Shown piece after piece: positions 84 to 27,555 of a stretch of 37,295 nt of DNA. The stretch spans positions 1 to 37,295 of the forward strand of contig CAYJUC010000002.1 of assembly GCA_964372605.1 (NCBI GenBank). The letters run 5' to 3'. How positions within the stretch are numbered: the first letter of the stretch is position 1; each line of letters begins with the position of its first letter. Below the pieces are notes generated by a model. That model did no database searches. It worked only from the letters and a program-made list of their open reading frames with translations, and was not told the DNA's origin. This DNA is from an uncultured bacterium (GTDB lineage: Bacteria; Methylomirabilota; Methylomirabilia; Rokubacteriales; CSP1-6). The position numbers and the translations under genes are program-made.

Positions 84-1076
84 TCACAGGTCAATCCCCA
101 CGGCGCGTCTCACCTCGTCCATCGTGGCCTGAGCCACCTGGCGCGCCCTTTTCGAGCCTTCGCGGAGGATCTCGATCACCTCGTGAGGCTGTTCCACGAA
201 CCGCTGGCGACGCTCACGGATCAGGGCAAGGGGCGGGAGGAGGTGCTTCAGGAGGACATCCTTGCAGTCCAGGCACCCGATGCCGGCCGTCCGGCACCCC
301 TCGGCGCAGGCCCGCCGCTCCCCCTCCGGGGTGAAAATCTTGTGGAGGTCGAAGACCGGGCACACCTCCGGGTTGCCCGGGTCGCTCCGGCGCTTGCGCG
401 CGGGATCGGTCATCATCGTCCGGATCTTGGGGGTGATGACCTCCGACGGGTCCGAGAGATAGATGCAGTTATCGTAGCTCTTGGACATCTTCCTCCCGTC
501 GGTGCCCGGCACCTTCGGGATCAGGGTGAGCTTGGCGGCCGGCTCAGGGAAGACCGGCCCGAAGGCGCTGTTGAACCGCCGCGCGATCTCCCGCGTCAGC
601 TCGATGTGCGGGAGCTGGTCGACGCCCACGGGAACGTGCCTGGCTTTATAGATCAGGATGTCCGCCGCCTGGAGCAGCGGGTACCCGAGGAGACCGTAGG
701 ACGGCGAGTCGAGCCCGAGCTGCTCGATGGTCTCCTTGTAGGTCGGGACGCGCTCAAGCCAGGCGACCGGAGTCACCATGGAGAAGAGGAGGTGAAGCTC
801 CGCGTGCTCGGGGACCAGGGACTGGACAAAGATGGTGGAGCGCTCCGGCTGGAGCCCGGCGCCGAGCCAGTCGGCCGCCATCTCGATGGTGTTGGCCGGG
901 ACCGCCGCCGCCTGGGAGTAATCGCTTGTCAGGGCGTGCCAGTTGGCCACGAAGAAGAAACAGTCGTAGTCCTGCTGGAGCTTCACCCAGTTGTCCAGCG
1001 CTCCCAGGTAGTTCCCCAGGTGCAGCTTCCCGGTTGGCCGCATTCCCGAGAGCACGCGATCCAGTGTCATGGCCAT
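84..1076 (-). CDS. trpS: Tryptophanyl-tRNA synthetase (class I)
   Basis: 330-aa ORF from ATG 1076. It has a HIGH-type motif (TGKLHLGN) near the N-terminus and KMSKS at residues 196-200. Length and overall pattern are typical of bacterial TrpRS. Confidence 0.95.
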   Translation of the reverse strand: MAMTLDRVLSGMRPTGKLHLGNYLGALDNWVKLQQDYDCFFFVANWHALTSDYSQAAAVPANTIEMAADWLGAGLQPERSTIFVQSLVPEHAELHLLFSMVTPVAWLERVPTYKETIEQLGLDSPSYGLLGYPLLQAADILIYKARHVPVGVDQLPHIELTREIARRFNSAFGPVFPEPAAKLTLIPKVPGTDGRKMSKSYDNCIYLSDPSEVITPKIRTMMTDPARKRRSDPGNPEVCPVFDLHKIFTPEGERRACAEGCRTAGIGCLDCKDVLLKHLLPPLALIRERRQRFVEQPHEVIEILREGSKRARQVAQATMDEVRRAVGIDL

Positions 1077-1097
1077 GGTCCGTTTTATGGGCGCGGC

Positions 1098-1349
1098 TCA
1101 GGCATACATCAGCCGCGCTTTCGGTTCAGGGATCGGACGACCCTGTTCCTTTGCCGTTTCGATCCATTCTTGGATGATCACCTCCACGCTGGCCAGCGCC
1201 TGCCGGTACGTCGGCCCATCGGCCGCGCAGCCCGGCAATTCCGGCACCTCGGCAATGTAGGCGTGATCTTTCTCACTCCAGTAAATGATGATCTCGTATT
1301 TCCACTTACTCCTATCAGCTCCCCCGACCAGGCGGTATTTCACGATCAC
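1098..1349 (-). CDS. hicB: HicB-family (UPF0150-like) antitoxin, short form without an obvious DNA-binding tail
   Basis: 83-aa ORF with the HicB hallmark YIAEVPELPGCAADGPTYRQALASVEVIIQEWIE...GRPIPEP. The start is GTG 1349, or the second GTG at 1343, which is better spaced from GAGGG. Confidence 0.85.
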   Translation of the reverse strand: MIVKYRLVGGADRSKWKYEIIIYWSEKDHAYIAEVPELPGCAADGPTYRQALASVEVIIQEWIETAKEQGRPIPEPKARLMYA

Positions 1350-1448
1350 CCCTCGTACCTGTTTTACCCCATCTGCGCCACTGCGCCTAATTATCGATTA
1401 GCCGGCATTGTTCTTCTTCGACCCCGGGTTAACTTCTCGAAGTGGAAG

Positions 1449-1739
1449 TCACCGCCTTCTGGCCGAAGACCTGCCGCCCTGAAGTTTCTCCAGGACCCAG
1501 CGCCGGATAAGGATTCCCTGCCGGACGCCTCTCGCCTGCGCGATCCGCTTCACCTCTTTAGCTTCCTCCGGTCGCAAGCGAACCGTGACAATAGCTTCCG
1601 GCCTACGCTCGAAAACCGCTTCGGGAACCTCCTCCAATTGGTCTTCGAACTCGGTCAGGTCGTGCGTCTGCCAGAACCGGGACAGTTCCTCGATCGAGTC
1701 GGTTTGCGGAAGCCTCTGATTTTTCATCGCCTTTTCCAT
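1449..1739 (-). CDS. brnA: BrnA/CopG-type (ribbon-helix-helix) antitoxin
   Basis: 96-aa ORF. The N-terminal FWQTHDLTEF motif and the C-terminal VTVRLRPEE...LIRRWVLEKL pattern match the BrnA antitoxin layout. Its ATG (1739) lies inside the 3' end of the upstream BrnT-like reading frame. Confidence 0.8.
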   Translation of the reverse strand: MEKAMKNQRLPQTDSIEELSRFWQTHDLTEFEDQLEEVPEAVFERRPEAIVTVRLRPEEAKEVKRIAQARGVRQGILIRRWVLEKLQGGRSSARRR

Positions 1740-2008
1740 TGGCTGAATCGTCGCTTCTCCCTCTCCGTCATTGGACGAGCCATCACCGGAAAGCCTTTTC
1801 CATCAGAAAACTGGATCACAACACAGAACTAGCGTCGCCCAGAGGCGGTTTGTCCCAGAACGTAATAGACCGGATTCTTCCCTGAGGCCTTAGCGCGCCG
1901 CACCCAGGCTCCGCCAACGCAGACGTCTTCAAACTCCTCAGGTTGCACTCGGTGTCTTGCGATATGATCAACCCGGTCTTGTGTCCAAATGAACTCATGG
2001 ATTTTCAC
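1724..2008 (-). pseudogene. BrnT-like (DUF497) toxin gene interrupted by an in-frame TAG
   Basis: My own translation from GTG 2008 gives VKIHEFIWTQDRVDHIARHRVQPEEFEDVCVGGAWVRRAKASGKNPVYYVLGQTASGRR, then TAG (1831..1829), then FCVVIQFSDGKGFPVMARPMTEREKRRFSQWKRR and TGA (1726..1724). Both halves together resemble a full BrnT-type toxin. It is absent from the ORF track because each piece is under 60 aa. Confidence 0.7.
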
Positions 2009-2011
2009 CCC

Positions 2012-3679
2012 TCAACTGTACAACACCTCCGATGGCTTCGATGGAAGCCAGACCACCTGCGCAGCCTGGCGGTCCCTGCTGGCAAATGCATGCCTACTCA
2101 GCAGGCCCAAGGCTTCGGGGACTAGTTCCCTGCCACGAGCATCAAGGCCACGATAAAACGCCGACTCGCGGCGTCCTGAGCCACGTTGGGCAAACAGCTT
2201 CTTGAGTATCGTGAGCAGAACCTTCGTGCCTAAAGGAAGCCCAAGAGCGAGTATCGCGTTGGTTGTCTGAGCGGGATTCTCGGAGGTGTCAAAGGTACAG
2301 TCGAGAAACTGCTGGGGAGGCATGTCGCTTAACCCAGTGCGCCCGTCCACGGATCCGAAGTGACATCGAACAAAGCTCGGGAGGAGCGCGACAGACGTAT
2401 CCGCCGGCAGATCCAGCCGGCCAACGATGCAATCTTGGAATTGAACGCGAGCGAGACTGCCAGCAAATCCTTCGAGGAGGATCTCTGGGATGAGCACTTC
2501 CTTAACAAAGATATCTGTACTGTCGCATGACGCACCTGCATGAAACAACGTCAAGACGATGTCGGCGCATAACCTCTCCGACTTCGGCAGCTCGTGCACG
2601 CGCCGGAGAGCGGCCTCGATCTTCCCTTGCTTGATTCCCGCTGAGTAACACTTGCACGCCGCCACCTCGGCCCCGAGAGACCACAGGGAACTCTGCCAGG
2701 CTTCGCTTTCCAGAAGCTGACCATAAGGGTTGTCTATGAAATCAGCGATCGTGCTACCTCGGGCAGCCTCAGCAAAATCCTCGTCAATGAAAACGCGAGC
2801 GCCGCCTTCCGATGAGTGACCACCCAAACCGGGTAACCGTTCGAACTCGCTGACGTTCAGGAAGGAGAAGCTCTCGCCGAGGTTGAGACTTATCGCCATT
2901 TCCCTGACACTGTCGAAGAAGTAGGCCCTCCCGGCGAGCAGCACTCCGAAGGATGGCGGCGTGTCTCGCAAGAAGGCGCGGACAAGTTCCATGGACCGGA
3001 ATCGAAGGTCCCGAAGTTTTTTCATTTTCCCAGCCCAACCAGCTGTTGCTATCTCGTCAAAGCCGTCCAAGAGTGGGAGGGCGAGACCGGCACGCCACCC
3101 TCGAACGAGGTCGGACGGGCGCTGGAAGCCGACCAGAACGTACTTCTGCCCTTTTAGCAGGGCTGAGCATATGTCATCCACCGAGAGGAGCGAGCCGTTT
3201 TTGTCGACGATGTCGAGAGGTACGTAGTCGAGTGCGATTCGGGCCACACCGGTTTCTGGATCCCGAACGCTGCCGAACGGGTAGTTCTCACGAGCCGACA
3301 GGTAGGACTTCGCGTCCACGAGTCGAGAGCGGAATTGATCGAAGGAGACTGCGACAATCCGACCCTGCACCTTGCGAAACACGGCTCGCTGGTCCGCTGT
3401 TGGTTCCTGAAGGGTTACGAACCATCCCTTAACGAACTTCTGCGGATATCGTGCGCCAAGCTTTCGGACTAGTTTCTGGAGTTTATCAAGGTCTTCGTCT
3501 GCTTTTCGCTTGGATCGCGAGGTCGTGCACTCCAGGATGTGAACGAACTCTTCGGTTTCGAACACTCCGTCGCGTTCCCGGCCCTCTTCAATCGAGGCGC
3601 CGCCGAACTCGGCTGACGGCCACAGCAGCCGCGCGATGCGCCTAACCTCGCCTTCGAAGTCCCTGTCACTCGCGAACAT
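2012..3679 (-). CDS. Hypothetical 555-aa protein: restriction-endonuclease-like N-terminal domain plus degenerate STAND/NACHT-like core lacking Walker A
   Basis: Long ORF in the sense direction of the neighbourhood, with lower GC than its flanks. The N-terminus FEGEVRRIARLLW...GRERDGVF...VHILECTTSRSK resembles PD-(D/E)xK-type effector domains. LPLLDGFDEI (res 201-210) looks like a NACHT Walker B, preceded by KYVLVG, but no GxxxxGK[ST] occurs anywhere. Function is inferred only from pattern recognition. Confidence 0.75.
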   Translation of the reverse strand: MFASDRDFEGEVRRIARLLWPSAEFGGASIEEGRERDGVFETEEFVHILECTTSRSKRKADEDLDKLQKLVRKLGARYPQKFVKGWFVTLQEPTADQRAVFRKVQGRIVAVSFDQFRSRLVDAKSYLSARENYPFGSVRDPETGVARIALDYVPLDIVDKNGSLLSVDDICSALLKGQKYVLVGFQRPSDLVRGWRAGLALPLLDGFDEIATAGWAGKMKKLRDLRFRSMELVRAFLRDTPPSFGVLLAGRAYFFDSVREMAISLNLGESFSFLNVSEFERLPGLGGHSSEGGARVFIDEDFAEAARGSTIADFIDNPYGQLLESEAWQSSLWSLGAEVAACKCYSAGIKQGKIEAALRRVHELPKSERLCADIVLTLFHAGASCDSTDIFVKEVLIPEILLEGFAGSLARVQFQDCIVGRLDLPADTSVALLPSFVRCHFGSVDGRTGLSDMPPQQFLDCTFDTSENPAQTTNAILALGLPLGTKVLLTILKKLFAQRGSGRRESAFYRGLDARGRELVPEALGLLSRHAFASRDRQAAQVVWLPSKPSEVLYS

Positions 3680-3753
3680 AGGGCCTTACTTCAAAGCGAG
3701 CCACGTCACTCCCAATAGTACCATCAGAACGAGCTTCTTCATGGTGGGTGGTC

Positions 3754-3759
3754 AGCATA
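3754..3759 (-). promoter_or_regulatory. Candidate -10 element (TATGCT) inside a 13-mer shared with the clpC upstream region
   Basis: The minus strand reads CTGGGATATGCTG (3765..3753), 74 nt upstream of the 555-aa ORF ATG. There is a 12/13 match to CTGGGATATACTG upstream of clpC. No convincing -35 was found. Confidence 0.25.
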
Positions 3760-3842
3760 TCCCAGTCAGAAACTTCGAACGACCGCAGGAATTCTTTCCG
3801 GCTGGCAGGACTGGGCAAGGTCTTCAGAGCCCCCTACCCGAT

Positions 3843-4631
3843 TTAGCTCCGTTCCGAAGTTCCTTCCCCGGTCGGGCGAAGCTGGCGCTCCCAGACCTTC
3901 GCCGTGCGGAGAAACACATAGTGAGCATAGAGGACGGCCAGGACCAGCCCACGCCATCCGTCGAGGAATCCCCCGTGCAGCAGGTACATGGCGAGAAACC
4001 GCCAGAGCGGGCGGAGTATCAGATCCCCCATCCCCACCCGCCTGCCGCGCCCGAGGAGATCCTCGGCCGCCAGCGTCGAATACCGGTTGGAGCGCTGGAC
4101 AAATTCCTCCAGGCTCCGGTAGCTCTCGTGAACAAGCGGGGACGCGAGGCGAGCCACGCGGCCGTTGACCGTGACCGACTCGTGCACGACCTGCTCGACG
4201 AACCGCCCCCTCCCCCGCCTGAACAGCCGGAGCTGGGAATCGGGATAGAGGCGCCCGTGCCGCACCCAGGCGCCCCAGAAGAAATTCTTCCGGGGGATCA
4301 GGTAGCCGTCGGCGGGCCCGTCGTTCCGGATGATCCGCTCGATCTCGTCACGAAGCTCTCGGGGCACCCGTTCATCGGCGTCGAGGGAGAGGATCCACTC
4401 CCGCGTGGCCTGATCGAGGGCGAAGTTCTTCTGGAGCGGGAATCCCGGCCAGGGCCGGACCCAGATCCGGTCGGTGAACTCGCGCGCCACCTGGACGGTC
4501 TTGTCGGTGGACTCGGCGTCCACCACCACGATCTCCTGGGCCCAGTCCACGCTTTCGAGGCATGGGCGCAGCCGTTCCTCCTCGTTCCAGGTGATCACGA
4601 TCACGGTGAGCCCGCTTTGGGGTGCGTTCAT
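3843..4631 (-). CDS. Family 2 glycosyltransferase (LPS-core KdtX/WaaE-like)
   Basis: LTVIVITWNEEERLRPCLESV.WAQEIVVVDAESTDKT...SLDADERV pattern and a hydrophobic C-terminal tail typical of this GT2 subgroup. The start is set at ATG 4631 (MNAPQSG), because the longer ORF-track N-terminus runs through REP-like hairpins. Confidence 0.85.
   Translation of the reverse strand: MNAPQSGLTVIVITWNEEERLRPCLESVDWAQEIVVVDAESTDKTVQVAREFTDRIWVRPWPGFPLQKNFALDQATREWILSLDADERVPRELRDEIERIIRNDGPADGYLIPRKNFFWGAWVRHGRLYPDSQLRLFRRGRGRFVEQVVHESVTVNGRVARLASPLVHESYRSLEEFVQRSNRYSTLAAEDLLGRGRRVGMGDLILRPLWRFLAMYLLHGGFLDGWRGLVLAVLYAHYVFLRTAKVWERQLRPTGEGTSERS
4619..4631. repeat. Direct repeat copy 1 (plus strand GGGGTGCGTTCAT; minus strand ATGAACGCACCCC), containing the GT2 start codon
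   Basis: An exact 12-nt match (GGGTGCGTTCAT) to 4808..4819. The flanking CTT(T)G also matches, with one indel. Confidence 0.9.
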
Positions 4632-4634
4632 CAG

Positions 4635-4672
4635 CCTCGGAGGGGGCTCCGCCCCCTTCCGAACCTCCCCCC
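4635..4672. repeat. REP-like element module A (hairpin GGGGGC-TCC-GCCCCC with TCGGA/TCCGA outer stem)
   Basis: CCTCGGAGGGGGCTCCGCCCCCTTCCGAACCTCCCCCC. It is near-identical to the reverse complement of 22705..22744, differing by one compensatory extra G:C pair and two loop substitutions. Confidence 0.85.
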
Positions 4673-4695
4673 TGCAGTTCGAGCGCGACGGGTTC

Positions 4696-4716
4696 GGCCT
4701 TGCCGCGAGGCAGGCC
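4696..4716. other. GC-rich stem-loop with GCGA tetraloop inside the 188-bp insert
   Basis: GGCCTTGCC-GCGA-GGCAGGCC, giving 4+4 bp of stem with one bulged T. Seen by eye only. Confidence 0.4.
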
Positions 4717-4743
4717 ACCCGACGCGCGAGGCCCGAGTTGGTT

Positions 4744-8563: not shown

Positions 8564-9684
8564 GGCGTCGCGCGCTCGACCAGCGGAAAGAGGAGCTGGC
8601 GGGCAGCCGTATAGCTGTAGCGCTGGACGCAGCGCTCCCGCGCTTTGAGCCCCAGGGCCCTGGCCTCCTCCGGGTGATCCAGCAGGAAGGCGATGGCGGT
8701 GGCAAGCTCCCGGGGGTCGCCGGGCGCCACCAGAAGGCCACAGCCATCCAGGATCTCGGGGATCATGGAAACTTGGGTGGAGACGATGGGACGAGCCAGG
8801 GCCATAGCGTCGAAGAGCTTGGCCGGGACCTGCCCGACGGTGGCGGGGGTCAGGCGCTGGGGAACGGCGACAAGATCGGCGGCCGCCAGATAGTGCGGCA
8901 CCTCGTTGAACGGGATCTCACCCTGGAGCCTCACGCCGATCCCCGTGGCGGAAAGCCGGCGCCCCATGGCGCTCCTGGGCGGACATCCCACTATGGCGAG
9001 AACCAGGTTCCGACGCCCGAGCTGGCGGACGGCTTCGGCGAGATCGTCAACGCCCTTATAGCCGCGAGGCGTCCCGAGGAACATCACCACCTGTTCTCTC
9101 CCCAGGCCGAGACGCGAGCGGGCCCTGGCGGGATCCGCCGTCTCAGGACGCCACGCCTCGGTATCTCGCACATGGGGAATCAGGACTCCGCCGAACCGCT
9201 GGTGCAGAAAGCGGGAGGCCACCGTGAGGCCCTGAACGGCCCCGACCGCGCGTTCCGCCAGCCATGTCCAGGGCAGGCCGTTGGGGTTCGCCAGATTCAG
9301 GAATCTCCCCACCCGACCCCAGGCGCCCGACCGGTAGAAAAAGCCCACCTCCCAGTCGTCGATGTCCAGCAGGAGCGGGCGACGTCCGATGAAGCGCTTG
9401 AGGAGACCGACACCGAAGCTGGTGGGGCGGGGTTTCGAGGCGTAGAGGAGATCCCCGTCGGCCAGCCGGAGGAGCTGAGGGAGCGTCCCGGCGAAGCGCG
9501 GATAGCGGAAGCCGGGAACGCTTCGCTGCCTGATCGCGCCGTCCGCGACCGGACCCCACACCGCGGGCCCGAAGGTAGGACCGACCACCTCCACATCGTA
9601 GCGGGGAGCCAGCAGCCTGGCCAGGAGGTCCGCCCGGCCCGCGGCGTTGTCCGACAGATCGAAGCAGAGAACCGAGATTTTCAC
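8560..9684 (-). CDS. GT4-type glycosyltransferase
   Basis: 374 aa from GTG 9684 (VKISVLCFDL...), a GTGA overlap with the upstream gene, and a C-terminal GT-B pattern (QVPAKLFDAMALARPIVST). The 585-aa track ORF is an overextension. Confidence 0.8.
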   Translation of the reverse strand: MKISVLCFDLSDNAAGRADLLARLLAPRYDVEVVGPTFGPAVWGPVADGAIRQRSVPGFRYPRFAGTLPQLLRLADGDLLYASKPRPTSFGVGLLKRFIGRRPLLLDIDDWEVGFFYRSGAWGRVGRFLNLANPNGLPWTWLAERAVGAVQGLTVASRFLHQRFGGVLIPHVRDTEAWRPETADPARARSRLGLGREQVVMFLGTPRGYKGVDDLAEAVRQLGRRNLVLAIVGCPPRSAMGRRLSATGIGVRLQGEIPFNEVPHYLAAADLVAVPQRLTPATVGQVPAKLFDAMALARPIVSTQVSMIPEILDGCGLLVAPGDPRELATAIAFLLDHPEEARALGLKARERCVQRYSYTAARQLLFPLVERATP

Positions 9685-11923: not shown

Positions 11924-13002
11924 CGGTTGATCAGATCACGGTAGAGACGCTCGAGGCAATCCACGACATGGGCGTGGGAGAAGCGAGACCGGACCAGAGC
12001 GCGGCCGCGCTCGGCCATCTCCCCCGCCCTGACCGGCTCGGTGAGCAGTGTTCGGATCGCGGCGGCCAGAGCCGCCGAGTCGCCAGCAGGGACCAGAAGC
12101 CCATTCACTCCGTGCTGCACCAGCTCGGGGATCCCGCCGACCGCCGTTGCCACCACCGGGCATCCCACCGCCATGGCTTGAAGAAGGGACTGGGGGACGC
12201 CCTCGGTACGAGTGGAGGCGAGGACAAAACAGCTCATGGCCCTGAGCAACTCCGGGACGTCGTCCCGGAACCCGGTGAACACCACTCGACCTCCGAGCCC
12301 CCGCGCTTCCGCCAGCTCCTCGACCGAAAGTCGTCGGGTCCCGGCCCCCACGAGGAGGAGAACCGCGGAGTGGAACTCGCCTGCGAGGCGGGCAAAGGCC
12401 TCGAGCAGCTCCGCGTGCCCCTTGGAGCCGCGAAACATGGCCACCGAGCCGATCACCGGGCCGATGAGACCCAGCTCGCGTCGGACCGGGGCGCATGCCG
12501 GTCCCGGGGAGAAACGGGTCAGATCGACACCCGCGGGGAATGCGACCACCTTGGAGCCTCTCACGCCGGCATCGATCAGGATCCGACGGATGGCCTCTCC
12601 GCTGGCGACAATCCGATCCGCGAGGAGCGAGTAGACCGGGTTCCAGCGACGCCGGATCGGAATCGAGACGTGACGGCTCCGCACGACCGGAACCCCGGCG
12701 AGCCGGGCGGCCATCCCTCCGAGCCAACCGTCCACCGAGCTGTGGGTGTGGACCAGCTCGACCCGTTCCCGGCGGATCAGCCCGCAGAGCCGGGCCAGCG
12801 CGATGACGTCCCACGGCGAGCGCATGGAGAGCGGAGTCACGGGAACGCGAACTCGCGGAGCATGGGCGAGGATCCCGCTTCCCGGCTGGCAGGCGATCAG
12901 CAGTCGCCACCCGCGCGCTTGGAGCCAGTCGATCTCTGTGAGGATGCGCACCTCCTGGCCTCCCCACCCCCGGGACGCCTCGGTGTGAAGCACCGTGTTC
13001 AT
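11920..13002 (-). CDS. GT4 glycosyltransferase
   Basis: 360 aa from ATG 13002 (MNTVLHTEASRGWGGQEVRIL...), an ATGA overlap with the waaF stop, and TRTEGVPQSLLQAMAVGCPVVAT. Confidence 0.85.
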   Translation of the reverse strand: MNTVLHTEASRGWGGQEVRILTEIDWLQARGWRLLIACQPGSGILAHAPRVRVPVTPLSMRSPWDVIALARLCGLIRRERVELVHTHSSVDGWLGGMAARLAGVPVVRSRHVSIPIRRRWNPVYSLLADRIVASGEAIRRILIDAGVRGSKVVAFPAGVDLTRFSPGPACAPVRRELGLIGPVIGSVAMFRGSKGHAELLEAFARLAGEFHSAVLLLVGAGTRRLSVEELAEARGLGGRVVFTGFRDDVPELLRAMSCFVLASTRTEGVPQSLLQAMAVGCPVVATAVGGIPELVQHGVNGLLVPAGDSAALAAAIRTLLTEPVRAGEMAERGRALVRSRFSHAHVVDCLERLYRDLINR

Positions 13003-21009: not shown

Positions 21010-22072
21010 CCTGCCCCGCCGACGACCCGGGAAGGCCCAAACGACGCTCAAGCTCGACGATCCGCCGCTCAAGAAAACGCACCCGCTTGAGCAGCCCGGG
21101 CAAGCGGGGGAGCGCGGCAAAGATCCGCCGGGCTTCGGCTGCCGGGCGGGTCGGTGTCCCCATGTAATCCTGGCCGGCGTCGAGGTCGTGGGGAACGCCG
21201 GACTGTGGCCCGACGCGGGCGCCCTCGCCCACGGTCACGTGGTCGGCCAGCCCGACCTGGCCCCCCAGCACCGCGCGGTTTCCGACGCGGCTGGAGCCGG
21301 AGATCCCCGCCTGGGCCACCACGATGGCATCCTCGCCGATCTCCACGTTGTGCCCGATCTGGACCAGGTTGTCCACCTTGGTTCCGCGGCGGACCACGGT
21401 ATGGCCCAGGGTCGCGCGATCGATAGCCGCGTTCGCCCCCACCTCCACGTCGTCCTCGAGGATCACGCCCCCGACCTGCGGGATCTTCTGATGCGCGGCG
21501 CCGTCAAACGCGTAGCCGAACCCGTCGGCCCCCACCACCGCGCCGGGGTGAATAATCACCCGGCGACCAATCCGAACCCCTTCCCGAATGATCACGTGAG
21601 GGTACAGGAGGGCTTCCTCCCCGACCTCGACCCCCGCCCCGAGGTAAACGAACGGAAAGATCCGCGCCCGGCGCGCGATGACGACTCCGTCCTCCAGGAC
21701 GGAGAAGGCTCCCACCGACGCCTCCGTGTGAACCCGGGCCGTGGGCGCGACCAGAGCTGACGGGTGGACGCCGGGCGTCGCGGCGGGTGCCGGGTGGAAG
21801 AGCTGGAGCAGGGAAATGAGCGCGCGCTGGGGGGAGCGCGACCGCAAAAGCGGGCCCGAGAGGCCGACGGCATCCTCCGGCACCAGGAGGGCGCCGGCGC
21901 TCGAAGTCCTGGCGCGGGCGAGATACTTCGGATGCGTCAGAAACGCGATCTGGTGGGATCCCGCCGTCTCCAGCGGCGCGACCCCCGTGATGACCCGCCA
22001 CGGATCACCTTCGAGAGACGCTCCCAGGGCCCGGGCAATCTCGCCCAGCGTGTACGGACCGGCAGGCGCCAT
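20993..22072 (-). CDS. lpxD: UDP-3-O-acylglucosamine N-acyltransferase
   Basis: 359 aa with the N-terminal uridine-binding pattern (YTLGEIA...IAFLTHPKYL) followed by hexapeptide repeats. Confidence 0.9.
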   Translation of the reverse strand: MAPAGPYTLGEIARALGASLEGDPWRVITGVAPLETAGSHQIAFLTHPKYLARARTSSAGALLVPEDAVGLSGPLLRSRSPQRALISLLQLFHPAPAATPGVHPSALVAPTARVHTEASVGAFSVLEDGVVIARRARIFPFVYLGAGVEVGEEALLYPHVIIREGVRIGRRVIIHPGAVVGADGFGYAFDGAAHQKIPQVGGVILEDDVEVGANAAIDRATLGHTVVRRGTKVDNLVQIGHNVEIGEDAIVVAQAGISGSSRVGNRAVLGGQVGLADHVTVGEGARVGPQSGVPHDLDAGQDYMGTPTRPAAEARRIFAALPRLPGLLKRVRFLERRIVELERRLGLPGSSAGQDDASV

Positions 22073-22077
22073 TCCGA

Positions 22078-22626
22078 CTATTTCTTCCGCTTGGCCGATT
22101 CCTGGTCATAGGCCTTGATGATCTCGTCGGTCACGTCGGCCTCCGGGGATACGTAAACAACGCCGGCCCCCCGACGCTCGACGATGATCAGGTAGCCTCG
22201 TTGCTTTCCGAACCGCTCGGTGACACCGGTGATTTCCTGCAGGGCCGCCTGGAGAAGCCCCTGCTCCTTTTTCTCCAGTTCCTTCTGAAAGTCATCGGCC
22301 ATGCGGCGGAGATCCCGGACCTTCCGCTCCAGGGTGTCCTGCTTCTCCCGGCGCGATTCCTGGCTCAAGAGCGCTCCCTTTTTTTCCAGCTCTTCCCGGA
22401 GCTTTTCCGCTTCGGTTCGTCGGGCGTCGATCTCCTTCTGCTTCGACGCCTTGTCCCGTTCCAGGTCTTCCCGCGCCGCGGCGCCGGCCGCGGACCGGGC
22501 GAGCACGCGCTGGACATCCACGTACCCGATCCGGGCGCCGGGAGATTGGGCCAGGACAGACCCATTCGAGAGCAGAGCGCACGCTGCCAAGAGAATCAGA
22601 ATCACGCAAAGGCGGAACCGCAGCAC
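22078..22626 (-). CDS. skp: Periplasmic chaperone Skp/OmpH
   Basis: 182 aa with a signal peptide and then a Lys/Glu/Arg-rich coiled-coil region. It sits in the canonical position between bamA and lpxD. A strong SD (AAGGAGGGAGGAG) precedes the GTG start. Confidence 0.85.
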   Translation of the reverse strand: MLRFRLCVILILLAACALLSNGSVLAQSPGARIGYVDVQRVLARSAAGAAAREDLERDKASKQKEIDARRTEAEKLREELEKKGALLSQESRREKQDTLERKVRDLRRMADDFQKELEKKEQGLLQAALQEITGVTERFGKQRGYLIIVERRGAGVVYVSPEADVTDEIIKAYDQESAKRKK

Positions 22627-22675
22627 TTCTCCTCCCTCCTTAACGTTTCGCTCACCTCGATGCTTTCCGCTCCGA

Positions 22676-22694
22676 GCGCGGGCTTTGCCCGCGC
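22676..22694. repeat. REP-like element module B, second locus
   Basis: Plus strand GCGCGGGC-TTT-GCCCGCGC, a perfect 8-bp stem. Its reverse complement matches 4744..4762. Confidence 0.85.
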
Positions 22695-22704
22695 CACCCT
22701 TCCC

Positions 22705-22744
22705 GGGGGGAGGTTCGGAAGGGGGGCAAAGCCCCCCTCCGAGG
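22705..22744. repeat. REP-like element module A, second locus (inverted relative to locus 1)
   Basis: The reverse complement reads CCTCGGAGGGGGGCTTTGCCCCCCTTCCGAACCTCCCCCC. It starts 3 nt after the bamA TAG and has a 7-bp G/C stem plus a 5-bp outer stem. Confidence 0.85.
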
Positions 22745-22746
22745 GG

Positions 22747-24993
22747 CTAGAACGGGGTGCCCACCGAGAAGTGAAACTGGTACGGCTTCTCTCCCGACTT
22801 CTGGTCCAGATTGTACCCCAAGTCGAGTCGGATCGGCCCGAAGGGGGATTCCCAGCGGACGCCCGCGCCCGCCGCCTTCCGCAGCTCGAGTGGGTCGAAC
22901 TTGGTCCCGAAGCCGTAGGCGTTTCCGGCGTCGAAAAATGTGGCGAGCCGGATCCCGAAACCCACCGGGACCAGGTGCTCCACATTGAAGAGCAGCTCGG
23001 AGTCCCCGCCGATCAGCGTGCCGCTCTCGTCCCTGGGGCTGATGGTCCTGGACTTCCGGCTCCGCACGGAATTGGGCCCGCCCAAGTAGAATCGCTCGAA
23101 CAGCGGGAAGTCCTTGCCGCTGTACCCGAAGCCGTAACCAGCCTCGGCTCGGGCCGCGAGGACGGTTCCCCAAAAAACCGGGTAAAAGTACGTGGTCTCG
23201 CCAATGGTCTTGACAAACCGGTTATCCCCTCCGAGGCCGGCGACATCGAGCGCCACGCTTGACCGGCTCCCTCGGGTGGGCGCGAACACGTTGTCGCGAG
23301 AGTCGCGGGTCAACGCCCCCCCGATAAGGGACGTCACCGTGGTCCCCGCCTGCTCGAGCAACACCCTGGAGGCGTTTGACGCGACGTCGGAGATTTCGTC
23401 CCGCGTGAGCCGATAGCTGAGATGCCAGCGAGCATACTCCATGATGGGGTGGCTCAACCGGGCGCCGCCGCCGAGGCTGTCGACCGTGTACTCGAGGAAG
23501 AGCCGGCGGGTCAGGAAGATATCGAAGCCGGCCGAGAGCGGGCGGTCAAACAGCCACGGCTCGGTGATTCCGATGACGCCCTGCTGGGTCCGCGCGCCCC
23601 CCCGCGCCCGGAGGAAGACCTCGAGCCCCTTCCCGAGGAAATTCCGCTGGGAGAGGTCGAGGGTTCCGATAAAGCTGTCCACGGAGCTGAACCCGGCGCC
23701 GAGACTGAACAGGCCGGTGGGCTTCTCGGTCACTTCGATGTTGATGACGATCCGGTCCTGCCGGGAGCCGGGGACGGTCGTGGCCTTGACGTTTTCGAAA
23801 TAGCCCAGGTTCGTGAGCTTCTGCTTGGCCCGCTCGAGCTTCTGGCTCGTGAAGAGATCGCCTTCGTCCATGGGAAGCTCGCGGCGGAGAATCTTCTCGG
23901 CGCTCCGGACGTTGCCGCTGATGTTGATCCGCTCGATGAACACCTCCGGGCCTTCCTTGACCTCGAAGGTCAGGTGGATCTTCCGCTCGACCGGATCCTG
24001 GCTGGTCGCGACGTTCATGTCGGCGGAGGCCCGCCCGATGGCGCTGTAGAGCGCGATGATGGAATCGATGCTCTCGCGGACCTTCCCCCGGGAGAAGATG
24101 TCTCCCGGCTTGAGCAAAATCTGGCGGCGCACTTCTTCCATCGGAAGCACGTTGGGTCCGGTGAGATCCACCGAGCCCACGGTGAACTGGGGTCCTTCCA
24201 CGACAGCGATCCGAATGGTCACCAGAGCCTTTGTCCTGTCCACCGAGATGTCGTGGGACTCCACGCGCGCCTGGATGTATCCGTGGTCGTTGTAGAAGGC
24301 GACGATCCGCTCGATGTCCTGCTCGAGCCTCTGGCGCTGAACCGTCCCGCGGAGGATGAAAAACTGCCGCTCCTGGGTCGCCATGACCGACTTGACCTGC
24401 TTGGGAGTCAACCCTTTGGCGCCCTCGATGACGATCCGGTCGATCTTGATTTTTCGCCCCTCCACGATCCGGAAGACCACCCTCACGTCGCCGTCTGGAA
24501 GCTTCTCGGTGTCGGCGGTGAGCTGCGCTTCGAAATACCCCTCCTCCTCGTAGTGATCTCTGAGCTGGTCCCGCGCTTTCTGCACTTCCACCGGGTTGTA
24601 CACGCTGCCCAGCTTGAGATCGATCTTCTCTTGCAGGCCTTTGGCGTCGAGCTGCTTCGCGCCAACGAACTCGACATCCCGGATGAAGGGGCGCTCCGCC
24701 ACCACGAAGGTGACCTTGAGGCCGCCCTCGAACTCGTCAACCTTCAGCCGGACGTCGTCGAAAAACCCGAGGGCGAAGATGCCCTTGATGTCCTCGGCCA
24801 ACCGGGCGGGAAGAAACTGGCTGCCTACCTTGCTTTGGACACGCCCGAGGATGACGGCCTCCTGAACCCGCCGGTTCCCCTCGATCGCGATCTCGTTGAT
24901 GCGGATCTGCCGCTCCTGGCCCCAGGCCAGCGCGGGCAGGCAGGTCGCCCAGACAAAAAAAATGGAGAGAAACACTCTCCCCACACGGTTCAT
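22747..24993 (-). CDS. bamA: Outer membrane protein assembly factor BamA (Omp85)
   Basis: 748 aa with a signal peptide, POTRA-like repeats and a C-terminal beta-barrel ending in ...FHFSVGTPF. Confidence 0.95.
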   Translation of the reverse strand: MNRVGRVFLSIFFVWATCLPALAWGQERQIRINEIAIEGNRRVQEAVILGRVQSKVGSQFLPARLAEDIKGIFALGFFDDVRLKVDEFEGGLKVTFVVAERPFIRDVEFVGAKQLDAKGLQEKIDLKLGSVYNPVEVQKARDQLRDHYEEEGYFEAQLTADTEKLPDGDVRVVFRIVEGRKIKIDRIVIEGAKGLTPKQVKSVMATQERQFFILRGTVQRQRLEQDIERIVAFYNDHGYIQARVESHDISVDRTKALVTIRIAVVEGPQFTVGSVDLTGPNVLPMEEVRRQILLKPGDIFSRGKVRESIDSIIALYSAIGRASADMNVATSQDPVERKIHLTFEVKEGPEVFIERINISGNVRSAEKILRRELPMDEGDLFTSQKLERAKQKLTNLGYFENVKATTVPGSRQDRIVINIEVTEKPTGLFSLGAGFSSVDSFIGTLDLSQRNFLGKGLEVFLRARGGARTQQGVIGITEPWLFDRPLSAGFDIFLTRRLFLEYTVDSLGGGARLSHPIMEYARWHLSYRLTRDEISDVASNASRVLLEQAGTTVTSLIGGALTRDSRDNVFAPTRGSRSSVALDVAGLGGDNRFVKTIGETTYFYPVFWGTVLAARAEAGYGFGYSGKDFPLFERFYLGGPNSVRSRKSRTISPRDESGTLIGGDSELLFNVEHLVPVGFGIRLATFFDAGNAYGFGTKFDPLELRKAAGAGVRWESPFGPIRLDLGYNLDQKSGEKPYQFHFSVGTPF

Positions 24994-25050
24994 AGGCTTC
25001 AGCGGGCCCCCGTCTGATCAGCAAAAGGACGGCAAGTAACGGGACCTCCC

Positions 25051-27498
25051 CTAGTGTTCCGCAAGTTCTAGGGGGGGCTCCACGGGCTCCCGCTCCCGGA
25101 AGGCGAAGGAATCCCCCTCAGCGTCAACCTCGATCCGCGTTCCCCCGGAAAACTGCCCTCGAACGATGGCCTCCGCCAAAGGGTCTTCAATCTGCTTCTG
25201 GATCGTCCGGCGGAGTTGACGAGCCCCGTAGGTGGCGTCGTACCCCTTTCGGACCAGAAGCTGCTCGGCGCTCGGCGTGAGCTCGATCTCGATCCCCTTC
25301 TCCAGGAGCTGTTTGTTGAGCCGGGCCATCATGAGGCGGATGATGCCCATGATGTGATCCATGGACAGGGAATGGAATACGATGATGTCGTCGATCCGGT
25401 TGAGGAACTCCGGCCGGAAGGCGCGCTTCATCTCCTCGAGCACCCGTCCCTTCATCCGCTCGTAGGACTCCCCCTCCGAATCCTGGAGAAAGCCCGGCGT
25501 GGTCCGCTTGCCGATCAACTGCGTCCCCAGATTCGAGGTCATGATCAGGATGGCGTTCTTGAAGTCCACCACGTGCCCGAGGGAGTCGGTGAGGCGACCG
25601 TCATCAAGCACCTGAAGCAGCATGTTGAAGACGTCTGGATGCGCCTTCTCGATCTCGTCGAACAAGACGACGGAGTAGGGACGGCGCCGCACCTTCTCGG
25701 TGAGGAACCCGCCCTCGTCGTACCCCACGTACCCCGGCGGCGCCCCCAAGAGCCGCGAGACCGAAAACTTCTCCATGTACTCGGACATGTCGATCCGGAT
25801 CAGCGCGTTCTCGTCCCCGAAGAGGTACTCCGCCAGCGTGCGCGCCAGCTCGGTCTTCCCGACTCCGGTGGGGCCGAGGAATACGAAGGAGCCGACCGGA
25901 CGCTTGGCGTCCTTGAGGCCCGCCCGTGACCGGCGGATGGCCCGGGCCACGGCCGCGATGGCGTCGTCCTGCCCCACGATCCGGCCGTGAAGGGCTTCCT
26001 CCATCCGGGTAAGCTTCTGCGACTCTTTCTCCTCCAGTTTCGCCAGCGGGATTCCGGTCCAGCGGGAAACGATGAACTCGATGTCCTCCTCCTCGACGGT
26101 CTGCTGGGCCTTCCCCTTGTGCTTCTCCCACTCCCGCTTGAGCTCTTCATCCCGCCCGCGAAGCAGCTTCTCTTTCTCCCGGAGGGACGCGGCTTTCTCA
26201 AACTCCTGCGCCTCCAGGTACATGTCCTTTTCCCGCACCACCCGCTCGATCTCCTTCTCCAGCTCTTTGATCTCGGGCGGCGGGGTCAGGGCCATCAGCC
26301 GGGTCCGCGAGGACGCCTCGTCGATCACGTCGATGGCCTTGTCCGGAAGCTGCCGGTCGGTGATATACCGGTCGGCGAGCTTGACCGCGGCATCGACGGC
26401 CTGGTCGGTGATCTTGACCCGGTGGTGCGCCTCGTACTTGTGCCGCAACCCCTTGATGATTTCGATGGCTTCGGGAACGGACGGGGCTCGCACGATGATC
26501 GGCTGGAAGCGTCGCTCGAGCGCGCCATCCTTTTCGATGTATTTCCGATATTCGTCGAGGGTGGTCGCCCCGATGGTCTGGATTTCCCCGCGGGAGAGCG
26601 CCGGCTTGAGCATGTTGGAGGCATCGATGGCCCCCTCGGCCGCGCCGGCCCCGATGAGCGTATGGAGCTCGTCCAGAAAGAGAATGACGTTTTCCGACTG
26701 GCGGATCTCCTTCATGACGGCCTTGAGGCGCTCCTCAAACTGGCCGCGGTACTTGGTCCCGGCCACCAGGGCGCCGAGGTCGAGTTGGAGGAGACGCTTC
26801 TGCACCAGCACGTCGGGGACATCGTGGTTGATGATCTTCTGGGCCAGCCCTTCGACGATGGCGGTCTTCCCCACGCCGGGCTCGCCGATCAGGACCGGGT
26901 TGTTCTTGGTCCGTCGTGACAGGATCTGGATCACCCGCTCGATCTCCATCTCCCGGCCGATGACGGGATCCAGCTTCCCTTCCCGCGCCAGCTGTGTCAG
27001 GTCCCGGGCGAACTCGTCCAGGACCGGGGTCTGGGAGCGCTTCTTGGGGCGGGGGTAGTACTGGTCCCCGAGGAGGGCCAGCGTCTCCTGGCGGACCTCG
27101 TCCAGGCGAGCGCCGAGGGACTCGAGGATCTTGGCGGCGATGGACTGCCCCTCCTTCATCACGCCGATGAGCAGATGCTCGGTCCCGATGTAGTTGTGGC
27201 CCAGCTGGCGGGCTTCCTCGATGGAGAGTTCCAGAACGCGCTTGGCCTGGGGGGTGAACGGCACTTCCCCGAACGTCAGGGTCTTCTGAAAGCCGGCCAG
27301 CGCCCGCTCCACCTCCGCCTTGACGGTCTCGAGGCGAAGGCCGAGCCGCTGCAGAACCGCCGTCGCTATCCCCTCTCCGTCCCTGATCAGCCCCAGGAGA
27401 ATATGTTCGGTCCCCACAAAATCGTGGCGAAACCGGCCAGCCTCCTCACGGGCTAGAATGATGACCCGCCGCGCCCGCTCAGTGAATCGCTCGAACAC
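25051..27498 (-). CDS. clpC: ATP-dependent Clp protease ATP-binding subunit, ClpC type
   Basis: 815 aa with tandem Clp_N repeats, two AAA+ modules (GEPGVGKT and GPTGVGKT) and a UVR-like linker ([13 protein letters not shown]). A GTG start follows SD GGAGGA. Confidence 0.9.
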
Positions 27499-27555
27499 TG
27501 GTCTATCCTCCGGGTCTTATTAACGTTTTCGTTCCGAAGCTGCCATTCCGCCCAC

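What the first reader, a model, noticed from the sequence alone, without database searches (positions are those of the whole stretch)
1098..3842. Lower-GC accessory islet between trpS and the LPS-core operon
Hand counts of single 60-nt lines give 27/60 G+C (2461-2520), 32/60 (3661-3720) and 36/60 (2101-2160) inside the islet, against 38/60 (9001-9060) and 46/60 (12001-12060) in the flanking housekeeping DNA. The islet holds only conflict-type genes, all co-oriented and nearly contiguous: the 555-aa REase/STAND-like ORF, 3 nt later a BrnT-like toxin (disrupted), an overlapping BrnA antitoxin, and about 100 nt later HicB. No integrase, tRNA or obvious att repeats were seen. It may be an old, partly decayed acquisition, or a compact four-gene cassette of a kind I do not recognise as a named system.
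Basis: partly seen in the sequence, partly recalled or inferred. Interest (0 to 1): 0.6.

Follow-up and report, generated by a model that had tools for sequence, protein, structure and literature searches.

The report
Decaying defence and toxin-antitoxin islet
A 2.8-kb stretch of foreign, lower-GC DNA wedged between two normally touching housekeeping genes holds the broken remains of three independent conflict modules (an NLR-like antiphage gene and two toxin-antitoxin pairs), so it is a real but ordinary decaying accessory islet, not a new four-gene system.

Summary
Window 1077-3842 has 57.3% G+C against 67.2% elsewhere, and third-codon-position G+C (GC3) of 0.55-0.71 against 0.86-0.90 in the flanking genes.

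In 16 of 16 informative related Methylomirabilota loci the GT2 stop abuts or overlaps the trpS start. The islet is therefore an insertion.

It is not a cassette. It is a mosaic of three modules that occur separately elsewhere, and the harmful part of each is disabled.
1. The 555-aa ORF is a copy of a uniform ~757-aa family: PD-(D/E)xK nuclease, NACHT NTPase, C-terminal domain. It has lost the Walker A region (56 aa), the helical/winged-helix region (123 aa) and the last ~28 aa.
2. brnT (94 codons) carries an amber codon at conserved Leu60. brnA is intact.
3. hicA is reduced to its last ~18 codons. A 1-nt deletion removed hicB's ATG and fused that hicA tail to hicB.

A closer relative (trpS 87% identical) has intact hicAB at the same site with different upstream cargo. 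The site is thus a layered, turning-over spot.

No integrase, tRNA, flanking repeats or Rfam hits were found.

Verdict: a new member of a known kind; low interest.

The parts
1077..3842 (.). The whole inserted islet, 2766 nt, between the GT2 stop and the trpS start.
   Evidence: G+C 0.573 against 0.672. GT2 and trpS are adjacent or overlapping in 16 related loci.
3843..4718 (-). Native flank: family-2 glycosyltransferase, the last gene of the lipid A / LPS-core array (LpxB, WaaA, LpxK, three GT4, GT9, GT2).
   Evidence: PF00535 at 9.6e-16. Array genes identified. GC3 0.86.
3680..3842 (-). Non-coding leader between the GT2 stop and the NACHT-remnant start, G+C 0.546. No recognisable promoter, RNA family or conservation.
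2012..3679 (-). 555-aa ORF: an in-frame deletion derivative of a ~757-aa PD-(D/E)xK-NACHT-C-terminal-domain protein. Judged a non-functional defence gene.
   Evidence: 644 homologues, nearly all 727-795 aa and carrying PF05729. Gaps fall at P0002 residues 183-238, 336-458 and about 731-758.
3275..3679 (-). N-terminal restriction-endonuclease-fold domain (residues 1 to about 135). It is intact, with the family-invariant D37, E50, T52 and K66 present.
   Evidence: Weak Card1_endonuc, Csx1 and CARF_PDDEXK hits. AF2 model pLDDT 82; best PDB neighbours are Nt.BspD6I, Can2, Cdn1 and Card1, at E 6e-3 to 7e-2. Invariant residues.
3128..3139 (-). Deletion junction 1 (KYVL|VGFQ). 56 codons are lost, including Walker A GDYGAGKS, helix 1 and strand 2. 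The junction lies between two Val-Gly dipeptides (microhomology).
3053..3067 (-). Retained Walker B motif D-G-F-D-E (residues 205-209). This matches the NACHT-specific D[GAS]hDE signature.
   Evidence: Alignment. Motif definition from Kibby et al., bioRxiv 10.1101/2022.07.19.500537.
2837..2848 (-). Deletion junction 2 (VSEF|ERLPG). About 123 codons are lost, covering the helical and winged-helix domains after the nucleotide-binding domain.
   Evidence: Secondary structure of the P0002 model.
2027..2842 (-). Retained C-terminal domain (putative sensor; beta-rich segment plus winged-helix-like end). No Pfam family. It lacks the last ~28 residues of the family.
2012..2026 (-). Breakpoint where NACHT homology stops (..SKPSE) and a 3-codon foreign tail plus TGA follow. 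brnT starts 3 nt later.
1724..2008 (-). brnT pseudogene: 94 codons, with an amber codon at codon 60.
   Evidence: Up to 82% identical over 100% of its length to 94-aa PF04365 proteins. Read through, it gives PF04365 at E 6.5e-4.
1829..1831 (-). In-frame TAG replacing the Leu/Ile that is conserved in all 14 aligned homologues. A single TTG-to-TAG change would do it (inference).
1449..1739 (-). brnA antitoxin (96 aa), intact. It overlaps the brnT frame by 16 nt, as in the intact module of L086.
   Evidence: PF12441 at 2.7e-7 and 31.7 bits, above the cut-off of 28. L086 has a 94 + 96 aa pair with the same overlap. DNA homology to L086 spans 1446-2002 only.
1368..1448 (-). 81-nt spacer of unknown origin between the brnA stop and the hicA stub.
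   Evidence: No homology to L086 or L093. No Rfam hit.
1314..1367 (-). 3' stub of hicA (VKQVRGVIVKYRLVGGAD). The rest of the 87-codon toxin gene is gone.
   Evidence: 87% nt identity to the end of the intact hicA in L093.
1313..1314 (-). Site of a 1-nt deletion (GATGAGG to GAT-AGG). It destroyed hicB's ATG and fused the hicA frame to hicB.
1098..1349 (-). hicB ORF (83 aa from the GTG at 1349). The HicB-homologous part is 1098-1313. Homologues are 72 aa. The N-terminal 11-12 residues come from the hicA stub.
   Evidence: PF15919 at 1.5e-8. More than 8000 homologues, 80-90% identical.
84..1076 (-). Native flank: tryptophanyl-tRNA synthetase.
   Evidence: PF00579 at 6.7e-67. GC3 0.90.

Best explanation
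The segment is a horizontally acquired islet, assembled in layers and now decaying. It sits in a Candidatus Methylomirabilota genome at a junction where the LPS-core glycosyltransferase gene (GT2) and trpS normally touch.

It contains three unrelated conflict modules.
1. A single-gene NLR-like antiphage protein of the bacterial NACHT kind. Intact members would presumably sense infection through the C-terminal domain, oligomerise through the NTPase and switch on the N-terminal DNase (inferred from characterised relatives).
2. A brnTA type II toxin-antitoxin pair.
3. A hicAB type II toxin-antitoxin pair.

In each module the component that can harm the host has been knocked out.
- The NACHT gene lost its P-loop, its helical/winged-helix domains and its C-terminal tail.
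- brnT has an amber codon at codon 60.
- hicA is deleted apart from a stub.

The two antitoxin genes remain open.

hicAB is the older layer and was co-inherited with trpS. The DNA upstream of it has turned over, and that turnover clipped hicA.

The islet has no terminator-like or promoter-like signals and is co-oriented with the operon. It is therefore most likely transcribed by read-through from the LPS-core array towards the essential trpS (inferred). As a defence or addiction device it is most likely inert. At most, BrnA and the HicA'-HicB fusion persist as orphan antitoxins.
For: Shown directly:
- Composition: G+C and GC3 drop over 1077-3842.
- Synteny: the junction is empty in 16 of 16 informative relatives with trpS 73-79% identical. 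Gaps between GT2 and trpS are -28 to +35 nt by tblastn ends and 0-3 nt where read directly.
- An independent assembly of a closer relative (L093/L094/L095, trpS 87% identical) has hicA-hicB-trpS. Its hicB and trpS are equally diverged from the window's: 87.5% and 85.4% nt identity, 74% and 72% at third codon positions. Its upstream cargo is different and also low-GC.
- NACHT remnant: homologues are a uniform ~757-aa family, with 510 clusters at E <= 1e-30, almost all 750-770 aa and matched in one full-length stretch. They carry PF05729 above the Pfam cut-off and an NLR/Avs-like fold. The window copy lacks P0002 residues 183-238, 336-458 and about 731-758 and gives no NACHT hit. No other member of the top 120 shares these deletions.
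- brnT: the stop codon sits at an otherwise conserved Leu/Ile.
- hicA stub, and loss of the hicB ATG through a 1-nt deletion.
- Modules occur independently: five intact NACHT homologues stand alone beside varied neighbours (gatB, serS, resolvase, IS110, a DUF433/Mut7-C-like gene pair) with no brnTA or hicB. brnTA pairs occur without either partner.

From the literature:
- A Walker A lysine mutation abolishes bNACHT01 defence (bioRxiv 10.1101/2022.07.19.500537).
- bNACHT25/32 need their PD-(D/E)XK nuclease (PMC12169576).
Against: - The 555-aa reading frame stays open through both internal deletions. At family-conserved columns in the retained regions it shows no excess of substitutions (4 of 135 changed, 3.0%, against a family mean of 3.5%). 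So either the deletions are recent or the shortened protein is still under selection. These data cannot tell the two apart.
- The contig is a metagenome assembly. I could not check reads, so the deletions and the amber codon rest on one assembly.
- Transcription through the islet, and inactivity of the remnants, are inferred and not shown.
- No insertion mechanism was identified: no integrase, att site or tRNA.
Confidence: 0.85

Rival explanations
1. The four ORFs form one functional, co-evolved cassette (nuclease/STAND protein plus BrnT, BrnA and HicB), an unnamed defence system.
For: The genes are co-oriented and nearly contiguous. All are conflict-type families.
Against: - Each module is found on its own elsewhere and never with the others in the loci examined.
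- The NACHT homology ends 15 nt before brnT, at a truncation of the family's C-terminus.
- brnT carries a stop codon at a conserved residue.
- hicB sits next to a hicA stub.
- No protein in a 5.8-billion-cluster database shares the 555-aa form.
Confidence: 0.02
2. The shortened 555-aa protein is a selected, neo-functionalised product. It would join a PD-(D/E)xK nuclease to the C-terminal sensor domain without a working NTPase, acting for example as a decoy, a regulator or a constitutive low-activity nuclease.
For: - Both internal deletions are in frame.
- The nuclease-domain invariants D37, E50, T52 and K66 and the C-terminal conserved residues are retained.
- The substitution rate at conserved columns is not raised (3.0% against 3.5%).
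Against: - Two in-frame deletions have a chance probability of about 1/9, and the ORF was noticed because it is open.
- Deletion 1 removes strand 1, the P-loop, helix 1 and strand 2 of the Rossmann-like core, but leaves Walker B and sensor 1. The central part is unlikely to fold.
- The C-terminal tail is also lost, to an apparent junction artefact.
- The form is unique to this contig.
- The neighbouring toxin genes are decaying too.
Confidence: 0.07
3. Assembly or binning artefact: the low-GC segment, or the internal deletions, come from chimeric joining or collapse in a metagenome assembly.
For: The source is a MAG contig; P0001 comes from a single 38,464-nt NCBI contig. Exact-sequence look-ups found no second assembly of the NACHT ORF or of brnA.
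Against: - The hicA-stub/hicB/trpS arrangement is reproduced at 85% nt identity in independent ENA and Logan assemblies.
- The composition boundaries coincide with gene boundaries at a junction that is tight in relatives.
- The deletions are precise, in frame and, for the first, bounded by microhomology. That is typical of biological slippage rather than of assembler behaviour.
Confidence: 0.05

Closest known systems
Bacterial NACHT (NLR-related) antiphage proteins with an N-terminal PD-(D/E)XK nuclease, e.g. bNACHT25/bNACHT32 (clade 6; Kibby et al., bioRxiv 10.1101/2022.07.19.500537; PMC12169576)
   Same: Intact relatives of the 555-aa ORF are single-gene proteins. They have an N-terminal restriction-endonuclease-fold domain and a central NACHT module: Walker A GDYGAGKS, Walker B DGFDE matching D[GAS]hDE, and PF05729 above the cut-off. 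A C-terminal domain follows that could act as the sensor. The model's best PDB neighbours are NLRC4, NLRP9, NLRP3, NAIP5 and Avs3.
   Different: - The window copy lacks Walker A and the HD/WHD, so it cannot work that way.
- The family's C-terminal region is mixed alpha/beta with a winged-helix-like end, not obviously the all-helical NCH1 domain.
- No sequence comparison with bNACHT25 was possible.
- The family is not hit by PADLOC v2.0.0 models.
- No member has been tested experimentally.
Avs/AVAST STAND NTPases with nuclease effectors (e.g. SeAvs3 and SeAvs7 with Cap4 nuclease; PMC13581612)
   Same: The logic is effector nuclease, then STAND NTPase, then sensor in one polypeptide. Avs3 (8dgc) is the third-best structural match.
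   Different: Avs proteins are much longer and have TPR sensors and Cap4/Mrr-type nucleases. This family is NACHT-clade, about 757 aa, with a short non-TPR C-terminus.
BrnT/BrnA type II toxin-antitoxin system (DUF497 ribonuclease toxin plus CopG/RHH antitoxin; first described in Brucella abortus - from my own knowledge)
   Same: The toxin gene comes first, followed by an overlapping CopG-type antitoxin gene. Sizes (94 + 96 codons) and the 16-nt overlap are identical to intact pairs.
   Different: The toxin has an amber codon at conserved Leu60. The pair has no upstream region of its own, since it begins 3 nt after the truncated NACHT ORF.
HicAB type II toxin-antitoxin system, short 72-aa HicB/UPF0150 form
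   Same: hicB is 80-90% identical to thousands of 72-aa HicB proteins. These sit 3' of, and overlap, an 87-aa HicA gene.
   Different: hicA is deleted apart from about 18 codons. hicB's ATG is lost. The ORF now starts in the hicA stub.
Defence / accessory-gene hotspots between conserved core genes (E. coli: PMC10121019; P. aeruginosa: PMC10250203)
   Same: A fixed chromosomal position flanked by core genes is empty in most relatives and holds different conflict cargo in two lineages.
   Different: - The scale is very small (2.8 kb).
- No mobile-element genes are left.
- The site lies inside a tightly coupled gene pair, where GT2's stop overlaps trpS's start in relatives.
- Only two occupied lineages are known, so calling it a 'hotspot' is tentative.

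Membership tests
NACHT-clade STAND NTPase (bNACHT) | Walker A P-loop GxxxxGK[ST] | tested here: not met
   GDYGAGKS is present in all intact homologues. It lies inside the 56-aa deletion of the window ORF.
NACHT-clade STAND NTPase (bNACHT) | Walker B with the NACHT-specific D[GAS]hDE signature | tested here: met
   DGFDE at window residues 205-209, invariant in the family. Motif definition.
NACHT-clade STAND NTPase (bNACHT) | Pfam NACHT (PF05729) at or above the gathering score | tested here: not met
   The window ORF gives no NACHT hit. Full-length homologues score 29-33 bits against a cut-off of 26.7. So the family is a member, and the window copy is a remnant.
NACHT-clade STAND NTPase (bNACHT) | Helical domain and winged-helix domain after the nucleotide-binding domain | tested here: not met
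   P0002 residues 336-458 (helices 337-446 in the model) are deleted in the window.
NACHT-clade STAND NTPase (bNACHT) | NLR-like fold of the NTPase module (family level) | tested here: met
   AF2 model of P0002: pLDDT 87, pTM 0.84. Foldseek top hits are NLRC4, NLRP9, Avs3, NLRP3 and NAIP5 at E 1.5e-8 to 2e-6.
NACHT-clade STAND NTPase (bNACHT) | Protection against phage | not testable with these tools
   No member of this family has been tested. The claim is an inference from other bNACHT clades.
bNACHT clade 6 (bNACHT25/32) | N-terminal PD-(D/E)XK nuclease effector | tested here: inconclusive
   The fold-level neighbours are all PD-(D/E)xK nucleases, but at E 6e-3 to 7e-2. Pfam Card1_endonuc scores E 0.011, below the cut-off. 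The conserved D37...E50-x-T52 with K59/K66 is not a canonical D...ExK motif.
bNACHT clade 6 (bNACHT25/32) | Sequence or phylogenetic affinity to bNACHT25, and an NCH1 C-terminal domain | not tested
A DNA search of E. coli genomes with the Erwinia homologue found nothing.
BrnT/BrnA type II TA | Intact BrnT (DUF497, PF04365) toxin ORF | tested here: not met
   Homology is clear: 82% identity to 94-aa PF04365 proteins. Codon 60 is TAG. The read-through product scores 20.4 bits against a cut-off of 34.5.
BrnT/BrnA type II TA | CopG/RHH BrnA antitoxin directly downstream and overlapping | tested here: met
   PF12441 at 31.7 bits against a cut-off of 28. The 16-nt overlap is the same as in L086.
HicAB type II TA | HicB antitoxin N-terminal domain (PF15919) | tested here: met
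   35.3 bits against a cut-off of 27. 80-90% identity to 72-aa HicB proteins.
HicAB type II TA | Cognate HicA toxin gene upstream | tested here: not met
   Only the last ~18 codons remain (1314-1367). The intact 87-aa HicA (PF07927) is present in L093 and L090.
HicAB type II TA | Native hicB start codon | tested here: not met
   The ATG was removed by a 1-nt deletion. The ORF now starts at a GTG inside the hicA stub.
Classical integrative genomic island | Integrase, tRNA/att target, flanking direct repeats | tested here: not met
   No tRNA in the window. There are no credible flanking repeats; the best is a 25-nt pair at 76% identity that does not lie at the borders. No integrase ORF.
Horizontally acquired insertion (generic) | Atypical composition, plus absence from the orthologous site in relatives | tested here: met

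The most novel reading that the evidence does not exclude
The 555-aa ORF is not a dead gene. It would be a selected 'NTPase-less' derivative of a bacterial NLR, joining a PD-(D/E)xK nuclease directly to the family's C-terminal sensor domain. It would be kept in frame because it does something, such as acting as a decoy for phage inhibitors, as a regulator, or as a nuclease controlled by the neighbouring antitoxins. The surviving BrnA and the HicA'-HicB fusion would then be retained as orphan antitoxins that protect against incoming TA-bearing elements.
Probability: 0.06. Interest if true: 0.5.

Novelty: new member of a known kind. Interest (0 to 1): 0.22.

Why it matters
It matters little on its own. 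It is a clean, small example of three known processes.
- Conflict genes lodge between core genes.
- They are replaced layer by layer.
- They are disarmed toxin-first, while the antitoxins linger.

Two by-products may be useful.
1. The intact relatives define a large, very uniform and untested family of ~757-aa nuclease-NACHT proteins. There are at least 510 clusters at 50% identity, mostly from soil and groundwater metagenomes. PADLOC v2.0.0 does not detect them, so they are candidates for antiphage testing.
2. For annotators, the 555-aa ORF, the 59-aa 'BrnT' and the 81-83-aa 'HicB' should be flagged as remnants or fusions, not as normal genes.

Tried and rejected
- Exact-sequence look-ups of the 555-aa ORF and of BrnA, to find independent assemblies, returned nothing. 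Cluster look-up gave no names or accessions.
- PADLOC on the four ORFs gave only weak hits to the nuclease domain of Csx1 and CARF_PDDEXK. It gave nothing for four full-length homologues. NCBIfam gave nothing useful.
- A PDB sequence-profile search found only P-loop noise.
- I looked for att-like direct repeats, tRNAs, sigma-70 promoters, intrinsic terminators and Rfam families in and around the islet. None were found.
- I looked elsewhere in the window for the deleted NACHT segments or the missing C-terminal 28 codons, as a test of 'brnTA inserted into the NACHT 3' end'. None were found. A deletion or illegitimate junction is therefore more likely than a simple insertion.
- I compared the upstream leaders of five intact homologues with the window leader. 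There is no conservation.
- I tried to reach E. coli bNACHT25 through an Erwinia plasmid homologue (28% identity) and a DNA search of E. coli genomes. There was no match, so clade assignment stays open.
- I first guessed that the brnT stop replaced a Tyr. The alignment shows Leu/Ile.
- I considered that the low G+C might reflect amino-acid content only, as at 22-27.5 kb. The GC3 values reject this.

Full report

Yes.
- The six 500-nt windows spanning 1001-4000 have 0.564-0.598 G+C. The rest of the window ranges from 0.618 to 0.718.
- Using the gene boundaries, 1077-3842 is 0.573 G+C against 0.672 for the remainder. The inside windows average 3.6 sd below the outside ones. No other 2766-nt segment falls below 0.625.
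- Codon position 3 is more telling. GC3 is 0.65 for the 555-aa ORF, 0.55 for brnT, 0.71 for brnA and 0.70 for hicB. It is 0.90 for trpS, 0.86 for GT2 and mostly 0.79-0.90 for the heuristically picked native ORFs, with a few doubtful picks at 0.68-0.77.
- A milder dip at 22-27.5 kb is BamA plus a Clp-type ATPase with GC3 0.87. That dip reflects amino-acid content, not foreign origin, so it serves as an internal control.

**2. Is it an insertion?**

Yes.
- The flanks identify the organism as Candidatus Methylomirabilota. trpS is 74-79% identical to three species-representative MAGs.
- The upstream genes form a lipid A / LPS-core array: LpxB, WaaA, LpxK, three GT4, a GT9 heptosyltransferase and GT2.
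- In those three genomes, GT2's stop and trpS's start are 0-3 nt apart or overlap, e.g. GCGTGATGG.
- A metagenome scan added 13 more loci with trpS 73-78% identical in which GT2 abuts trpS. Gaps by alignment ends are -28 to +35 nt. Two further loci lack upstream sequence.
- So 16 of 16 informative relatives are empty, and the window carries 2766 extra bases exactly at that junction.

**3. An older layer: hicAB.**
- The best HicB homologue (90% identical) lies on an ENA contig (L093; the same sequence is in Logan contigs L094 and L095). Its order is [unknown 150 aa]-[HSDR_N-like 357 aa]-hicA(87 aa)-hicB(72 aa)-trpS-scpA-scpB.
- Its trpS is 87% identical to the window's, closer than any GTDB representative.
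- DNA homology to the window runs from 76 to 1367 at 84.5% identity. It then stops inside hicA.
- hicB and trpS are equally diverged: 87.5% and 85.4% nt identity, 74% and 72% at third positions. hicAB was therefore already beside trpS in the common ancestor.
- The window keeps only the last ~18 codons of hicA (VKQVRGVIVKYRLVGGAD, 1314-1367).
- A 1-nt deletion (GATGAGG to GAT-AGG, at 1313/1314) removed hicB's ATG and joined the hicA frame to hicB. The '83-aa HicB' is thus a HicA'-HicB fusion starting at a GTG, whereas homologues are 72 aa.
- In L093 the DNA upstream of hicAB is also low-GC (0.56-0.58) but encodes different proteins. The cargo on that side has turned over.

**4. brnTA.**
- Read through its TAG, the brnT frame is 94 codons. 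It is up to 82% identical, end to end, to 94-aa PF04365 proteins.
- The TAG (1829-1831) replaces a Leu or Ile present in all 14 aligned homologues (GR[HY]LFCVV against GRR*FCVV). One TTG-to-TAG change would suffice (inference).
- brnA is intact at 96 aa and scores above the PF12441 cut-off.
- Intact pairs elsewhere have the same 94 + 96 codon sizes and the same 16-nt overlap. They lie among unrelated genes, with no NACHT gene or hicB nearby.
- DNA homology to such a pair covers 1446-2002 only, from the brnT start to the brnA stop. The pair has no upstream region of its own here.

**5. The 555-aa ORF.**
- Its 644 detectable homologues are almost all 727-795 aa, typically 757, and carry Pfam NACHT.
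- An exhaustive search finds 510 clusters at 50% identity with E <= 1e-30. Nearly all are 750-770 aa and matched in one full-length stretch.
- Alignment shows that the window copy lacks three parts:
  - P0002 residues 183-238, holding the end of strand 1, Walker A GDYGAGKS, helix 1 and strand 2;
  - residues 336-458, the helical and winged-helix domains;
  - the last ~28 residues, replaced by Leu-Tyr-Ser-stop immediately before brnT.
- It keeps the N-terminal domain, Walker B (DGFDE, the NACHT-specific D[GAS]hDE), sensor 1 and most of the C-terminal domain.
- The first junction lies between two Val-Gly dipeptides, consistent with slippage at microhomology.
- No trace of the lost segments exists elsewhere in the window.
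- Shorter database members are N-terminal truncations. None shares these deletions.
- The window ORF gives no NACHT hit in Pfam, while full-length homologues pass the cut-off.

**6. What the intact family is.**
- An AlphaFold2 model of the closest homologue (P0002) has pLDDT 87 and pTM 0.84. It matches NLRC4, NLRP9, Avs3, NLRP3 and NAIP5 best.
- The window's own N-terminal 163 residues, modelled with the family alignment (pLDDT 82), resemble PD-(D/E)xK nucleases: Nt.BspD6I, Can2, Cdn1, Card1 and Mus81. The E-values are marginal, 6e-3 to 7e-2. This agrees with weak Card1_endonuc, Csx1 and CARF_PDDEXK profile hits.
- The C-terminal ~300 residues have no Pfam family. The model shows a beta-rich segment followed by a winged-helix-like unit.
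- Five intact members sit alone beside unrelated neighbours: gatB and a GT28; resolvase and AlpA; a DUF433/Mut7-C-like gene pair (a putative toxin-antitoxin pair, by my reading of the Pfam domains); IS110 and a resolvase; serS.
- A 28%-identical member lies on an Erwinia persicina plasmid, next to an integrase and a Phd/RelE pair.
- This is the pattern of a mobile single-gene defence protein of the bacterial NACHT kind. The closest described architecture is bNACHT25/32: PD-(D/E)XK, NACHT, C-terminal domain (PMC12169576). I could not test membership of that clade.

**7. How it most likely works now.**
- In characterised bNACHT proteins a Walker A lysine mutation abolishes defence. In STAND nucleases the effector is activated by NTPase-driven oligomerisation (PMC13581612).
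- A copy without the P-loop, helix 1, strand 2 and the HD/WHD cannot do this, so I judge the gene dead as a defence sensor (inference; probability about 0.9).
- BrnT truncated at residue 59 of 94 lacks the conserved C-terminal half and is very probably inactive. HicA is gone.
- All three harmful components are thus disabled, while both antitoxin ORFs are open. This is the expected order of decay for addiction modules, since losing the antitoxin first is lethal (established reasoning, not tested here).
- The retained parts of the NACHT ORF show no excess change at family-conserved columns: 4 of 135, or 3.0%, against a family mean of 3.5%. Its deletions are therefore either recent or the remnant is still constrained.
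- The islet has no promoter-like or terminator-like sites and is co-oriented with the array. trpS is therefore probably transcribed through it (inference).

**8. Rivals.**
- A functional four-gene cassette is contradicted by the independent occurrence of each module and by the junction anatomy.
- A selected NTPase-less protein cannot be excluded, but rests only on two in-frame deletions (chance about 1/9) and on unchanged conserved residues.
- An assembly artefact is unlikely for the hicB-trpS part, which independent assemblies reproduce. It remains untested for the NACHT deletions and the amber codon.

**9. Novelty and score.**
- Every element belongs to a known kind: a bNACHT-type defence gene, BrnTA, HicAB, and an accessory islet at a core-gene junction (compare PMC10121019 and PMC10250203).
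- The intact nuclease-NACHT family is untested and is missed by PADLOC v2.0.0. That is a modest lead rather than a discovery.
- Interest: 0.22.

Noticed in passing
window 22001-27500: A second, milder G+C dip (0.62-0.65) covers BamA (22747-24993) and a Clp-type AAA+ ATPase (25051-27498). GC3 stays at 0.87, so the dip reflects amino-acid content and not foreign origin.
   Followed up: yes
L093:1-1640 (ENA ERZ27284380 k139_360784): In the closest relative, the same site upstream of hicAB-trpS carries different low-GC cargo. One gene is a 357-aa HSDR_N-like (PD-(D/E)xK) protein (PF04313, 4.8e-9). The other is an unknown 150-aa ORF. Neither matches a PADLOC system convincingly.
   Followed up: partly
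L178:4001-7671: An intact member of the nuclease-NACHT family (P0013) sits directly upstream of, and co-oriented with, a seryl-tRNA synthetase gene. This echoes the window's position upstream of trpS and may be coincidence.
   Followed up: no
family of P0002: The ~757-aa nuclease-NACHT family is unusually uniform in length, with at least 510 clusters at 50% identity. Its N-terminal domain has a conserved D37...E50-C-T52 motif with K59/K66, not a canonical D...ExK. PADLOC v2.0.0 and PDB sequence searches do not recognise it.
   Followed up: partly
window ~3688-3744 (- strand): A short signal-peptide-like ORF (MKKLVLMVLLGVTWLALK) lies in the leader between GT2 and the NACHT remnant. It is probably chance.
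   Followed up: no
L096:5980-10412 (Erwinia persicina plasmid NZ_CP146502.1): A distant family member (28% identity over 94% of P0002, annotated as a NACHT domain-containing protein) lies on a 37-kb plasmid. It sits next to a site-specific integrase and a Phd/RelE toxin-antitoxin pair.
   Followed up: partly
P0431: One other family representative (653 aa) matched in two stretches. It may be another internally deleted copy. I did not examine it.
   Followed up: no
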